Source: Octopus sinensis (lineage: Eukaryota). From it: a stretch of 64,000 nucleotides of DNA. Where the stretch lies: assembly GCF_006345805.1 (NCBI RefSeq), contig NC_042997.1:145824001-145888000 (forward strand), written 5' to 3'. Every line of letters starts with the position of its first letter. Within the stretch, counting starts at the first letter, position 1. This document shows positions 3,961 to 22,748 of the stretch, piece after piece. Made by a program: the position numbers and the translations under genes. The notes below the pieces were generated by a model, which had not been told where the DNA came from, made no database searches, and saw only the letters and a program-made list of their open reading frames with translations.

Positions 3961-4489
3961 ATGGTAGGAGGGAACAGAAGGTCTCGATGATACAACTGGA
4001 AACACAAATCATATCAAGGTTTACTGCCCCCGCCTCAACACAAAATACAGCATCCACTACTGCCAATACCACAATATCAGCACCACCACCAGCAGCGACT
4101 ACAATTGGACAGCTACAATTACAGCATGCAACTTCAGCAACAGTGATAGCAACACCAGTTACAAGACTAAAAGCAGCACCTACAACAACAAAAACAACGA
4201 CAACACCAAAAGTGAAAACAACTATAACAGTAACAAAAAAGAAAACGAATCACCATCGTTAAGAGCCACCACATCACCAGGATCAACAACAGTAGCTGAA
4301 AGCTCCAAAGCAACAGTAAAACCAAGAGTGTGTTGAAAGAAATTCTTAGAGGTTTGGATGATTCACCTTTCGAAACAGGGTGGTTCGTTCAACATCCTTA
4401 AAAATCCTTATTCAGGGACCTTTTGAGCAGGGTGCGCTACTCGACCAGAAGAAAATTCTAACTGGGCTCCACCTGCAAGATTTACTGTA

Positions 4490-5848: not shown

Positions 5849-7575
5849 TTTTTTTTTCTTCTTTCAAATTTGCTTCCATTCCTTGCCGAGTGTCTTCCCG
5901 ACTCCTAGGGCAAAGAAACACATAATATACATTGGTAGGCCATTAAACCAAACTCAATAGTTCGTTCATTTTTTAATTTTTTTTTTAAGTTAAATTAAAA
6001 TAGATGAGCAGCAACAGTTCTCACATCGACAATGCTCTTCTCAATACGTGTGATGTACCAGCTAAGACAATCTTTTGCACTTCTTGCAGGGATGGTAAGC
6101 CAGGGATCATTCTCATATAATTTTCGGTTCCCTTCTTGATCATTCCTAGTGCTCCTACGATCACTGGTATTGTAACCGCCTTGAGATGCCACATTTTCTC
6201 AATTTCAATGAGTAGGTCTTTATATTTTCTGAGATTGTCAAACTCTTTCGCTGAGATATTATGATCACAGGGGATGCTCATGTCGATCAATAAGCAAACT
6301 TTATTGTTTTGGTCTTTCACAACAATATCTGGTTTATTGGCCTTGATGGTTCGGTCTGTATGTACTGGAAAGTCCCACAGAATGGTTACATTTTCTCCTT
6401 CAGTTACAGCCTCAGGGTGGTGATTATACCACTTGTCGGCAGTTTTGATATTATAATGCCGACTTATTAGCCAGTGGAGATATTGGCCAACTCTGTCATG
6501 TCTTAATTTATACTCCACTGGTGCTAAGACTTTACATCCAGAGATTAGGTGGTCTACTGTTTCAATCATGTCGTTGCAGAATCGGCATTTTGGATCTGCT
6601 CCATTTTTCATCACATTGGCCTGGTAGTTCTGGGTTAATAGGCTTTGATCTTGAGCAGCCAGGATGAAACCTTCGCTCTCTGCTTTTAGCCCTGAGCTCC
6701 GTAGCCACTGATGGGTTTGCTTCTGGTCAACATCAGCTTGTTTGCTGCGGGTCACATATTTGCCGTGCAGATGTTTCTCCTCCCACCTATCAGCCAATTG
6801 CTCGTGCGCTTTTTTCATTGCCATCATTTTCACCTTCTTTGCAACAATAGTTGCCGTACTTCCCTCGGGTTGTTCAGTTTGGGTATCCTGCACGAGATCA
6901 ATAGCAAATTTTTTGCTTTCTTTTATGATAGAATGAAGCTTCTTTCGTCTCTCGTGATTTTCCACGAGCTTTAGCATCCAGTCATTCGATATTTCGAGAT
7001 ATTTGGCCAGTCCAATTGTGGTTGTTTTGTAAGCTAGTTCAAATTGGATCAGGCCTCGACCTCCTTGGGCTCCGGGAAGGTAAAGGCGATCTACGTCTGC
7101 CTTTGGGTGGTGCATCCTATTACAACTCAGCAGCTTGCGTATTTTCCTATCTATATTCTTTACTTCACTCATATTCCAGTTCAACACATTGTAGCTATAA
7201 GTAACAACTGGAACTGCTAAGGAATTTATAGCTAACACCTTGTTACGTGCATTTAGTTCAGATTTCAGGACTGCACGAACTCTCCTATAACATTCCTTCC
7301 TGATTTTCTCTTTCATGCTTGCATGCTGAATATCAGAGCCTTCATTTATCCCTAAATATTTGTATGTTTGTTCTTGCTCAAGCTCTCTTATGACTGTGTC
7401 AACATCTAACACGACTGAATTTGTGGTCTTCACTTTCCCTTTCTGGAAAGTGGCCTTGGCACACTTCTCAAGTCCAAACTCCATCCCGATGTCATCGCTG
7501 AATGCTTTCACGGTGCGCAATAGGCCTTCAAGTTCATTATTGTCTTTACCATAAAGTTTTAAGTCATCCATATAA
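5849..7575 (-). mobile_element. R4/Dong-clade non-LTR retrotransposon, 5'-truncated copy 1, inserted in (TAA)n
   Basis: Open frame from RT motif YMDD through CRFC..ETVDHLISGC zinc knuckle, RHD and KPD..LIDMSIP..KY RLE endonuclease; ~170-nt 3' UTR ending in an A-run; (TAA)n on both sides. Confidence 0.93.
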
Positions 7576-7622
7576 TTATTATTATTATTATTTTTTTTTT
7601 CTTCTTTCAAATGTGCTTCCAT
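6021..7622 (-). CDS. 533-aa ORF: RT C-terminal half, CCHC knuckle and RLE endonuclease; first ~16 aa come from the neighbour's 3' UTR plus (AAT)n
   Basis: No stops from 7573 to 6021; RT motifs upstream of YMDD are missing, so not a functional RT. Confidence 0.6.
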   Translation of the reverse strand: MEAHLKEEKKNNNNNNYMDDLKLYGKDNNELEGLLRTVKAFSDDIGMEFGLEKCAKATFQKGKVKTTNSVVLDVDTVIRELEQEQTYKYLGINEGSDIQHASMKEKIRKECYRRVRAVLKSELNARNKVLAINSLAVPVVTYSYNVLNWNMSEVKNIDRKIRKLLSCNRMHHPKADVDRLYLPGAQGGRGLIQFELAYKTTTIGLAKYLEISNDWMLKLVENHERRKKLHSIIKESKKFAIDLVQDTQTEQPEGSTATIVAKKVKMMAMKKAHEQLADRWEEKHLHGKYVTRSKQADVDQKQTHQWLRSSGLKAESEGFILAAQDQSLLTQNYQANVMKNGADPKCRFCNDMIETVDHLISGCKVLAPVEYKLRHDRVGQYLHWLISRHYNIKTADKWYNHHPEAVTEGENVTILWDFPVHTDRTIKANKPDIVVKDQNNKVCLLIDMSIPCDHNISAKEFDNLRKYKDLLIEIEKMWHLKAVTIPVIVGALGMIKKGTENYMRMIPGLPSLQEVQKIVLAGTSHVLRRALSM

Positions 7623-8650
7623 TTCTTGCCGAGTGTCTTCCCGACTCCTAGGGCAAAGAAACTCATAGTATACATTGGTAGGCCATTAAACCAAACTCAA
7701 TAGTTCGTTCACTTTTTTTTTTTTTTTTTAAGTTAAATTAAAATACATGAGCAGCAACAGTTCTCACATCGACAATGCTCTTCTCAATACGTGTGATGTA
7801 CCAGTTAAGACAATCTTTTGCACTTCTTGCAGGGATGGTAAGCCAGGGATCATTCTCATATAATTTTCGGTTCCCTTCTTGATCATTCCTAGTGCTCCTA
7901 CGATCACTGGTATTGTAACCGCCTTGAGATGCCACATTTTCTCAATTTCAATGAGTAGGTCTTTATATTTTCTGAGCTTGTCAAACTCTTTCGCTTAGAT
8001 ATTATGATCACAGGGGATGCTCATGTCGATCAATAAGCAAACTTTATTGTTTTGGTCTTTTACAACAATATCTGGTTTATTGGCCTTGATGGTTCGGTCT
8101 GTATGTACTGGAAAGTCCCGCAGAATGGTTACATTTTCTCCTTCAGTTACAGCCTCAGGGTGGTGATTATACCACTTGTCGGCAGTTTTGATATTGTAAT
8201 GCCGACTTATTAGCCAGTGGAGATATTGGCCAACTCTGTCATATCTTAATTTATACTCCACTGGTACTAAGACTTTACATCCAGAGACTAGGTGGTCCAC
8301 TGTTTCAATCATGTCGTTGCAGAATCGGCATTTTGGGTACGCTCCATTTTTCATCACATTGGCCTGGTAGTTCCGGGTTAATAGGCTTTGATCTTGAGCA
8401 GCCAGGATGAGACCTGCGCTCTCTGCTTTTAGCCCTGAGCTCCGTAGCCACTGATGGGTTTGCTTCTGGTCAACATCAACTTGTTTGCTGCGGGTCACAT
8501 ATTTGCCGTGCAGAGGTTTCTCCTCCCACCTATCAGCCAATTGCTCGTGCGCTTTTTTCATTGCCATCATTTTCACCTTCTTTGCAACAATAGTTGCCGT
8601 ACTTCCCTCGGGTTGTTCAGTTTGGGTATCCTGCACGAGATCAATAGCAA

Positions 8651-8653
<3 letters not shown>
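7591..8653 (-). mobile_element. R4/Dong LINE copy 2, more truncated, head-to-tail with copy 1
   Basis: Near-identical to 5849-6913; premature TAA at 7995-7997; WDF changed to RDF. Confidence 0.93.
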
Positions 8654-8710
<57 letters not shown>

Positions 8711-8714
8711 TATT

Positions 8715-8749
<35 letters not shown>

Positions 8750-8800
8750 CATTATTATTATTATTATTATCATCATTATTATTATTATTATTATTATTAT

Positions 8801-9355
8801 TGAGTGAGAGAGCAGTGCATGCCTTCAAAGTGTCACAGGGGTAAAATATACGAAGCCCTGTATAACCATCATGACTACCCGTCTGATAAGGGTACACCAG
8901 GCACATGCATCACAACCATATGTGCGCGACATGGTGATCTCATATCAAGATAAACAGTGCATGACCTTGCAGGTGGGGCCCAGTTAGAATTTTCTTCAGG
9001 TCGAGTAGCCCATCCTGCTCAAAAGGCCTCTGAATAAAGATTGTTGAAGGATCTTGAACGAACCACCCATATTTCCAAAGGTGAATTATCCAAACCTCTA
9101 AGAATTCCTTTCAACACACGGCTAGAATGCTCCCCCACTACTTCTGCTTGTGATCAGAGATACACATATCGTCAGCCACTAAGGGACATGGTCAACTGTT
9201 TAAGGTCAAACAACTGACAAGCAAATCTGTGGTATTGAGTAGAATATTTGCTGTAGCCCATCTTTTATACCAAGACAAAACAATGTACATGATAACACTT
9301 CCAATCAGTTAAGATCAGCAGCCATGAGAGCCACTGCCTGGTCCTGAATCCGGGT
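8801..9355 (-). mobile_element. ~550-bp non-coding (TAA)n-associated retroposon, copy a
   Basis: Five copies in window; complete 3' ends read GCTCTCTCACTCA then (ATA)n; no long ORF. Confidence 0.85.
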
Positions 9356-9430
9356 ATTATTATTATTATTATTATTATTATTGATGTTATTGTTGTTGTT
9401 GTTTTTGTCGTCGTTGTTGTTGTTGTTATT

Positions 9431-9582: not shown

Positions 9583-10255
9583 TGAGTGAGCGAGCAGAGC
9601 ATGCCATCAAAGTGACACTGGGGTAAAATATACGAAGCCCAGTATACCCATCATGACTACCCGTCTGATAAGGGTACACCAGGCACATGCATCACAACCA
9701 TATGTGCGCGACATGGTGATCTCATATCAAGATAAACAGCACATGACCTTGTAGGTGGGGCCCAGTTAGAATTTTCTTCAGGTTGAGTAGCCCATCCTGC
9801 TCAAAAGGTCCCTGAATAAAGATGGTTGAAGGATCTTGAAAGAACCACCCATATTTCCAGAGGTGAATTATTCAAACCCCAAAGAATCCCTCTCAACACA
9901 TGGCTATGATGCTCCCCCACTACTTCTGCTCGTGATCAGCGATGCACATATCGTCAGCCACTAAGGGACATGGTCAACTGTTTAAGGTCAAACAACTGAC
10001 AAGCAAATCTGTGGTATTGAGCAGAATATTTGCTGTAGCCCATCTTTTATACCAAGACAAAACAATGTACATGATAACACTTCCAATCAGTTAAGATCAG
10101 AAGCCATGAGAGCCACTGCCTGGTACTGCATTCGGGCAACTGCCTGGTACTGCATCAGGGCATTACCTGGTACTGCATCAGGGCATTACCTGGTACTGCA
10201 TCAGGGCAACTGCCTGGTACTGCATCAGGGCACCTGCCTGGTACTGCATTAGGGC
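9583..10255 (-). mobile_element. (TAA)n-associated retroposon copy b, with 6 reiterations of its 5' ~24 nt
   Basis: Colinear with copy a; unit actgcctggtactgcatcagggca repeated over 10114-10255. Confidence 0.85.
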
Positions 10256-10371: not shown

Positions 10372-10822
10372 TGCATCACAACCATATGTGCGCGACATGG
10401 CAATCTTATGTGAATATAAAGTGTATGACCTTGCAGATGGGGCCCAGGTAGAATTTTTCTTTAGGTCGAGTAGCCCACCCCGCTGAAGAGGTTCTTGAAT
10501 AAGGGTTGTTTAAAGATTATGAACAAAACACCCATGCTTCCAGGGTTGAATTATCCCAACCCAAAAGAATCCCTTTCAACACGTGGTTATTATGCTGCTC
10601 CACTACTCCTGCTCGTGATCAGAGATGCACATATATCGTCAGACACTAAGAGACATGATCAACTAGTTAAAGTCCAGTAACTGATAGGTAAATCTGTGGT
10701 ATTGAGCAGAATATTTGCTGTAGCCCATCTTTTATACCAAGACAAAACAAGTACATGTTAACACTTAACACATGTTAAGATCAGAAGTCAGGAGATCAAC
10801 TGCCTAGTATTGCATTAGGACA
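10372..10822 (-). mobile_element. (TAA)n-associated retroposon copy c (older, 3' end missing)
   Basis: Colinear with copies a and b but more diverged. Confidence 0.8.
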
Positions 10823-21667: not shown

Positions 21668-21770
21668 TGAGTGAGTGACAGAGAGCAGTGCATGCCATCA
21701 AAGTGACACTGAGGTAAAATATACGGAGCCCAGAATACCCATCATGACACCCCATCTGAAAAGGGTACAC
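21668..21770 (-). mobile_element. (TAA)n-associated retroposon copy d (3' 100 bp only)
   Basis: Matches 8801-8900. Confidence 0.8.
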
Positions 21771-21912
21771 AGAATAGACCCGCATATAGTGAATGACATG
21801 GTGTGTCAATCAGCACAAACACACGTCCGCTATCTGTGACATATACACTCACATCGTTTTCAAGCCTTGAAACTATAGTAGAAAGGATTATTATTGTCAT
21901 TATTATTATTAT

Positions 21913-22370
21913 TGAGTGAGAGAGCAGTTCATGCCATCAAAGTGACACTGGGGTAAAATATACGAAGCCCAATATACCCATCATGACTACCCGTCTGATA
22001 AAGGTACACCAGGCACATGCATCACAACCATATGTGCGCGACATGGTGATCTCATATCAAGATAAACAGCCATGACCTTGCAGGTGGGGCCCAGTTTGAA
22101 TTTCTTCAGGTTGAGTAGCCCATCCCGCTCAAACGGTCCCCGAATAAGGGTTGTTTAAGGATGTTGAAAGAACCACCCATGTTTCCAGAGGTGAACTATT
22201 CAAACCCCAAAGCATCCCTCTCAACACATGGCTATGATGCTCCCCCACTACTTCTGCTCGTGATAGAGATGCACATATCGTCAGCCACTAAGGACATGCT
22301 CAACTGGTTAAGGTCAAACAACTGACAAGCAAATCTGTGGTATTGAGCAGAATATTTGCTGTAGCCCATC

Positions 22371-22376
<6 letters not shown>
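21913..22376 (-). mobile_element. (TAA)n-associated retroposon copy e, 5'-truncated
   Basis: Colinear with copy b; (TTA)n on both sides. Confidence 0.85.
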
Positions 22377-22432
<56 letters not shown>

Positions 22433-22440
22433 TATTATTA

Positions 22441-22748
22441 AGGCGGCGAGTTGGCAGAACCGTTAACACGCCGCGCAAAATATTTGGCAGCATTTCGCCT
22501 TTTATCGTCTTTATGTTCTGAGTTCAAATTCCGCCAAGGTCAGCTTTGCCTTTGGTCCTTTCGAGGTCGATGTAATCGACTAGCCTCTTCCCGCAAAAGA
22601 TTAGACCTTAGGCCTATAGTAGAAACGATTATTTTTATTGAGGCGTCGAGTTGGCAAAATCGCTAGCAGGCTGGGCGAGATGCTTATGTGATCCCGATTA
22701 TGCGATCTGTTTTTCAACCCGACCGAGGTCAACTTTGCCTTTCATTCT
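22441..22748 (+). mobile_element. SINE family A, one full and one partial copy
   Basis: Family A motifs. Confidence 0.75.

What the first reader, a model, noticed from the sequence alone, without database searches (positions are those of the whole stretch)
8801..9355. Non-coding 550-bp (TAA)n-specific retroposon with a possibly 5S rRNA-derived head
Seen: five copies, a fixed 3' end joined to (TAA)n on the same strand as Dong, variable 5' truncation, no tRNA A/B boxes, no ORF, and no visible match to the adjacent Dong 3' UTR. The first ~140 nt show colinear words found in animal 5S rRNA (TACCA, GATCT, CTGAT, GGAAG, GATGGG, AATACC) at similar spacing; GATGGGCTAC recurs internally. Inference: a diverged SINE3-like or structured-RNA parasite of an R4/Dong LINE. 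The 5S match is by eye and weak.
Basis: partly seen in the sequence, partly recalled or inferred. Interest (0 to 1): 0.7.

Follow-up and report, generated by a model that had tools for sequence, protein, structure and literature searches.

The report
Dong-borne structured RNA, no 5S head
This is a real, very abundant 556-base non-coding jumping element that sits in TAA repeats in the same direction as Dong retrotransposons and likely borrows their enzyme, but the proposed 5S rRNA origin is not supported and how it is transcribed and recognised remains inferred.

Summary
The element is real: 556 nt on the minus strand (8802-9357), no ORF, at least 15,205 genomic copies. All 30 position-ordered copies end at one base before AAT repeats, 25 are preceded by them, and 17 are full length from a fixed 5' base, so it is a discrete unit, not a LINE 3' UTR. 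Orientation, junction phase and 5' head duplications match Dong (R4-type) LINEs. No tRNA boxes, HDV or hammerhead motif were found, and no tail shared with about ten sampled Dong 3' UTR types. New here: the sense strand alone folds well (z about -4, antisense +0.6), with modest support from inherited variants, and nt 103-272 are shared (164/170) with a 488-bp MITE, which more likely captured them. Best reading: a structured, non-autonomous Dong passenger of unknown origin. The scan noted the same element before on other DNA of this genome (e1-10333100). Repbase and Dfam could not be searched.

The parts
8802..9357 (-). Full-length copy of the 556-nt element (minority subfamily, 95% to its subfamily consensus)
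9086..9255 (-). nt 103-272 of the element: segment shared with the interior of a 488-bp MITE
8651..8801 (-). (AAT)n array at the 3' junction, separating the element from a 5'-truncated Dong
9584..10138 (-). Second full-length copy (97% to the main consensus)
10139..10255 (-). Five tandem duplications of the first 21-35 nt of the head, upstream of copy 2
10372..10822 (-). Old copy (85%), nt 2-452, 3' end missing
21914..22376 (-). 5'-truncated copy (nt 90-556) between two (AAT)n arrays
21669..21812 (-). 3' fragment (about nt 411-556)
4328..4479 (+). Internal fragment (nt 239-392), opposite strand
5860..7570 (-). 5'-truncated Dong family A copy (RT C-terminal part, CCHC, endonuclease region, 3' UTR); likely one of the candidate mobilising families
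7600..8650 (-). Second, shorter 5'-truncated Dong A copy, 97% identical to the first

Best explanation
It is a discrete, high-copy, non-coding 556-nt repeat with fixed ends that lies in (TAA)n arrays in the Dong orientation, and it is likely a non-autonomous retroposon copied in trans by the reverse transcriptase/endonuclease of Dong (R4-type) LINEs. Shown: ends, flanks, orientation, 5' truncations and head duplications, copy number, absence of an ORF, of a 5S or tRNA head and of a tail shared with the sampled Dong families. Predicted: a sense-strand fold in three domains, in which nt 219-227 pair with the last ten bases. Inferred: the RNA likely starts at its own first base (an A) from an internal or source-locus promoter, probably Pol II as it carries three T4 runs and no Pol III boxes; it would run into the downstream UAA repeats; Dong protein would nick a TAA array, prime on those repeats and recognise the RNA by shape (possibly a small hairpin near the 3' end) rather than by a shared tail sequence; failed 5' joining would give the head duplications.
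For: Exact 21-mers: 15,205 for the 3' end, 7,009 for the 5' end, 0 for reversed controls; 7 hits in 400 kb of evenly spread DNA. Of the first 30 3'-anchored hits, 30 are followed by AAT repeats (3.7% of random positions), 25 are preceded by them, 17 are full length, 14 have a Dong fragment on the same strand within 1.5 kb and 1 on the other strand (random 3-kb windows 13 of 120, either strand). Dong A, B and C 3' ends join AAT in the same phase. Dong B and C have fixed 5' ends with tandem duplication of the first ~20 nt, as do 7 of 29 5'-anchored element copies. Fold z -3.85 for one copy, -4.45 and -4.33 for two consensuses, antisense +0.6; 20 control windows -3.0 to +1.4. Inherited variants keep predicted pairs in 15 of 27 cases, rare ones in 86 of 383; one double change, 252/318, in 6 of 24 copies. 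Dong targets TAA repeats (PMC3812793, PMC7998251, passages).
Against: No experiment and no RNA evidence: the runs found are contigs or DNA, and the one raw-read run held 9 reads. No sequence link to any Dong was found, so the partner is inferred from target and junctions; other TAA/ATT-associated retroelements exist here. Structure support is modest: transitions only 15 of 19 against 79 of 151 (p 0.03; p 0.15 at the stricter pairing cut-off), the antisense control leans the same way (6 of 14 against 58 of 270), 12 common variants break predicted pairs, and RNAalifold's covariation term is -0.53 with many helices differing from the single-sequence fold. The 3' hairpin motif shared with Dong A and B (shuffle p 0.002) was defined after seeing the element, sits 18 rather than 42 nt from the end and is absent from most other families. 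The promoter is not identified.
Confidence: 0.8

Rival explanations
1. An internally deleted or tail-sharing derivative of a Dong family that I did not sample or that is extinct (SIDE/RIME-like or EhSINE-like), hence an ordinary LINE-derived passenger.
For: About ten Dong-like 3' UTR types exist here and 5' ends were seen for only three; fixed ends and head duplications are Dong-like; precedent in R2 SIDEs (PMC3774820) and bipartite non-autonomous LINEs (PMC5786205).
Against: 200 Dong C-terminal hits in 1.33 Mb fell into 18 groups and none matched the last 130 nt (best p 0.023 of 18); a profile search of about 0.57 Mb found nothing but copies; young copies (under 1% from consensus) need a recently active partner, and the abundant families A, B and C share no sequence with it; loose ends in four runs showed only the MITE junction, indels and AAT (top rows only).
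Confidence: 0.3
2. A SINE3: Pol III transcript with a diverged 5S-derived head.
For: A gapped alignment from base 1 is colinear and has AGATGGG near the C box position.
Against: Not significant in any test; A box p 0.43, C box p 0.17; spacings off by 9-15 nt; three T4 runs in the sense strand.
Confidence: 0.06
3. A retroposed cellular structured RNA not yet known in molluscs (a conserved source gene with an upstream promoter) that Dong picks up by its shape.
For: Strand-specific fold with 31 G-U pairs of 185; fixed A start; consensus changed only about 2% between subfamilies while copies reach 17%.
Against: No Rfam family, no match to about 100 kb of the genome's GC-rich rDNA-bearing stretches (best E 0.87); several subfamilies imply several sources; no source locus found.
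Confidence: 0.12
4. The 3' UTR of an autonomous LINE.
For: 5' truncation and a LINE-like 3' junction.
Against: Fixed 5' end directly after AAT arrays; none of 30 plus 29 position-ordered copies continues upstream into shared or coding sequence (flanks read by eye plus tblastn).
Confidence: 0.03

Closest known systems
EhSINE1 of Entamoeba histolytica (PMC2996970, passages read; that its partner EhLINE1 is R4-type is recalled)
   Same: 500-600 nt, non-coding, non-autonomous, no small-RNA precursor identified, promoter uncertain
   Different: EhSINE1 shares about 70 bp of 3' end with its LINE and is not microsatellite-specific; this element shares no detectable tail and is tied to (TAA)n
R2 SIDEs of Drosophila (PMC3774820, passages read)
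   Same: Non-autonomous passengers of a site-specific restriction-like-endonuclease LINE with a defined 5' end
   Different: SIDEs consist of the R2 HDV-like ribozyme plus R2 3' UTR sequence; neither counterpart was found here
Dong elements, R4 clade (PMC3812793, PMC7998251, PMC3774820 passages; Dong-R4 in octopus, PMC13282606 parts 1-2 of 3)
   Same: (TAA)n target, orientation, 3' junction phase, 5' truncation and head duplication
   Different: No ORF, no sequence homology; Bombyx Dong cuts its 5' end with an HDV-like ribozyme, which my descriptor did not find here or in octopus-type Dong B and C heads
SINE3 (5S-headed SINEs) and SINEs with heads of unknown origin (PMC5786205 parts 1-2 of 5; PMC3531059 passages)
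   Same: Short (<700 bp), high copy, LINE-dependent; unexplained heads have precedent (for example WALLSI1)
   Different: No 5S or tRNA head and no recognisable Pol III promoter, so it does not meet the SINEBase definition as far as tested

Membership tests
SINE3 | 5' head homologous to 5S rRNA | tested here: not met
SINE3 | Type 1 Pol III boxes A, IE, C at 5S spacing | tested here: not met
   A box 9/15 (p 0.43), C box 11/18 (p 0.17), offsets differ
SINE (SINEBase definition) | Under 700 bp, non-autonomous, high copy | tested here: met
SINE (SINEBase definition) | Pol III transcription from an internal promoter | not testable with these tools
   No tRNA call, one A-like hit at nt 86 and one B-like hit with a mismatch at nt 118, three T4 runs; no RNA data
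SINE with LINE-derived tail | 3' end shared with the partner LINE | tested here: inconclusive
   No match to 18 groups of Dong 3' UTRs; sampling incomplete; post hoc hairpin motif only
SIDE / bipartite non-autonomous LINE | 5' part derived from the LINE 5' UTR or ribozyme | tested here: inconclusive
   Not met for Dong A, B, C; 5' ends of other families not obtained
HDV-like ribozyme-bearing element | Nested double pseudoknot with conserved L3 and catalytic C, cleaving before G at the 5' junction | tested here: not met
   0 hits with a strict descriptor that finds 20 of 20 synthetic designs; a relaxed one hits 92 of 100 shuffles and is uninformative; no natural positive control
Retrozyme | Hammerhead motif, tandem monomers | tested here: not met
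   No Rfam hammerhead hit; adjacent copies are separated by AAT arrays
Dong-mobilised element | Insertion in (TAA)n in Dong orientation and phase | tested here: met
Dong-mobilised element | Trans-mobilisation by Dong protein | not testable with these tools
   needs an assay
Dong / R4 clade (adjacent LINE) | Single ORF with RT, CCHC and restriction-like endonuclease, TAA target | tested here: met
   1,235-aa open frames, RT family on homologues, R2 proteins as nearest solved structures, motifs read from the sequence; no tree with named Dong elements was built

The most novel reading that the evidence does not exclude
A headless and tailless parasite: a folded RNA of no LINE, tRNA or 5S ancestry that hijacks a site-specific Dong reverse transcriptase purely through its shape and read-through UAA repeats, possibly using several Dong families, reached tens of thousands of copies, and donated 170 nt to a DNA-transposon MITE.
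Probability: 0.3. Interest if true: 0.7.

Novelty: new variant of a known kind. Interest (0 to 1): 0.45.

Why it matters
Known passengers of site-specific LINEs carry a piece of their LINE. If this one is recognised by shape plus UAA repeats, it defines the minimal template that an R4/Dong enzyme accepts, a directly testable question that also bears on using such enzymes for targeted insertion. It makes up roughly 0.7% of sampled DNA, so it also matters for annotating these genomes.

Tried and rejected
5S head. rDNA origin: 20 loci around 5.8S genes, best E 0.87 (the Rfam annotation of those loci failed, so their rRNA content is judged from the 5.8S hits and GC only). A weak mir-1246 hit (E 0.39) was not followed; U2 itself did not score. 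Dong A, B, C 5' UTRs and Rfam ribozymes in B and C heads: nothing. Two junctions that looked like new families, element tail plus Dong B tail (L031) and element head plus tRNA SINE (L150), are single loci among 40 scored hits each. A-to-I editing signature: none, A>G 10.6 against T>C 10.4 per 1000. Metagenome scan for the 3' 21-mer: 0. The raw-read run X24 held 9 reads, useless for copy number. The tree of the shared segment does not resolve MITE against element. One search folded the antisense strand of a neighbouring copy by mistake; it serves only as an antisense value (+0.85).

Full report
Observation. The window holds a 556-nt unit at 8802-9357 on the minus strand, four more co-oriented copies and one inverted fragment. 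The genome G000 has 2.72 Gb; that it is an octopus is my inference from size, contig number and repeat content, echoed by earlier scan notes, and no call names it. Exact 21-mers from the 3' and 5' ends occur 15,205 and 7,009 times, and 40 evenly spread 10-kb stretches gave 7 hits, so I estimate 20,000-50,000 copies. Fourteen public runs under five organism labels hold half or more of its words. Among 102 near-complete copies, a sample biased to young ones, the main group of 81 has a median of 2.5% from its consensus (range 0.4-16.6%) and a second group of 21 differs at 13 sites.

It is a discrete unit. I took the first 30 genomic hits of each 21-mer (all on contig C1), unselected for quality. 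All 30 3'-anchored copies are followed by AAT repeats, against 3.7% of random positions; 25 are also preceded by them; 17 start within the first 10 nt; the other 13 start at nt 53-480, two of them through internal deletion. None continues upstream into shared or coding sequence. Seven of 29 5'-anchored copies carry a duplication of part of the head. The precise end, the variable end and the 2:1 count fix the minus strand as the sense strand.

Link to Dong. The adjacent LINE fragments belong to a family with 1,235-aa open frames, RT, CCHC and endonuclease motifs and R2 proteins as nearest solved structures. Dong elements are described as TAA-targeting (PMC3812793, PMC7998251; passages). About ten 3' UTR types of such elements occur in my loci, mostly ending at AAT in the same orientation and phase as the element. 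Fourteen of 30 element loci have Dong on the same strand and one on the other. Families B and C have fixed 5' ends with tandem head duplications like the element's. Yet no sequence is shared: not with the 5' ends of A, B, C nor with 18 groups of 3' UTRs (best p 0.023). A CCCNAG plus 5-bp hairpin motif fits Dong A, Dong B and the element (shuffle p 0.002) but not most other families, and I defined it after seeing the element.

The 5S claim. Rfam gave no 5S hit at E<=10 in two scans. A covariance model from six own 5S genes scored true genes at 146-148 bits, an AT-rich flank at 21 and the head at 6. The resemblance is at chance level.

Other origins. No tRNA, no convincing A/B box pair, three T4 runs. 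Bombyx Dong cleaves its 5' end with an HDV-like ribozyme and R2 SIDEs rely on one (PMC3774820, passages), but a strict descriptor found none in the element or in Dong B and C heads (20 of 20 synthetic positives, no natural control). Copies whose 5' flank is not an array still begin with AT before the first G, which fits a transcription start better than HDV cleavage (inference). rDNA-bearing stretches gave nothing.

Structure. The sense strand folds at z -3.85 (one copy) and -4.45/-4.33 (two consensuses), the antisense at +0.6; 20 control windows of similar GC range from -3.0 to +1.4. The signal is strongest in nt 218-460. Variants in 8 or more of 101 copies keep predicted pairs in 15 of 27 cases, rare variants in 86 of 383; for transitions alone 15 of 19 against 79 of 151 (p 0.03, 0.15 at the stricter cut-off), and the antisense control leans the same way. 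RNAalifold on 24 copies finds one recurrent double change (252/318, 6 copies), a covariation term of -0.53 and a partly different fold. A folded sense RNA is likely; its helices are not established.

A shared segment. A loose end in four runs led to a second repeat, 339 exact 20-mer hits. Twenty of these are a 488-bp MITE with about 96-bp imperfect inverted ends, 11-bp termini and TAA/TTA flanks (exact duplication in 3 of the 6 copies with both ends called). Its interior matches nt 103-272 of the element at 164 of 170 and stops at the inner edge of the right inverted repeat. MITE copies are 10% from their consensus, the oldest element copies 14-17%; two of the six differences remove CpGs that the element keeps. 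This leans to capture by the MITE (about 65%); the tree is unresolved. If so, it does not explain the element's origin.

Literature. Nine searches found no description of this element or of a Dong-mobilised short element. Read: PMC13282606 (parts 1-2 of 3; lists 893 unclassified recently active SINE families and 5 Dong-R4 families in O. vulgaris), PMC5786205 (parts 1-2 of 5), and passages of PMC8967140, PMC3774820, PMC3747384, PMC3812793, PMC9115989, PMC7998251, PMC2996970, PMC3531059, PMC4758252. No supplements were read; Repbase, Dfam and the deposited octopus library could not be searched, so the family may already be catalogued without a description.

Verdict. A real, Dong-borne, non-autonomous retroposon (0.8), not a SINE3 (0.06), not a LINE UTR. 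Its promoter, origin and mode of recognition are inferred. New variant of a known kind; interest 0.45.

Noticed in passing
L186-L205 (e.g. L202, around 1270-1850 in motif orientation): 488-bp MITE with CACTG-type ends and TAA/TTA flanks that carries 170 nt of the retroposon; its left interior has a splice-acceptor-like stretch followed by about 40 open codons.
   Followed up: partly
window 22376; L015, L078, L183, L184, L240, L243, L254: 5' truncations cluster at nt 86-97, an ATAAAA stretch that resembles the target repeat; likely microhomology.
   Followed up: no
L034, L035, L076-L105: Dong A has a long, low-complexity 5' UTR with variable starts, whereas Dong B and C have fixed 5' ends, often preceded by (GAA)n; none showed the HDV fold reported for Bombyx Dong (A not tested).
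   Followed up: partly
groups, e.g. L050, L252, L237, L061, L259, L106: About ten Dong-like families with unrelated 3' UTRs share the same TAA target and stack in the same arrays.
   Followed up: partly
window 22440-22571 and many others: An abundant tRNA-type SINE is flanked by the same microsatellite in the opposite (ATT) orientation.
   Followed up: no
L031:4800-4960 (minus); L150:7880-8115: One-off chimeras: element-like tail joined directly to a Dong B 3' end, and element head joined to an antisense tRNA SINE.
   Followed up: yes
G000 C4:131.78-131.98 Mb: 5S rRNA gene cluster with units in both orientations.
   Followed up: no
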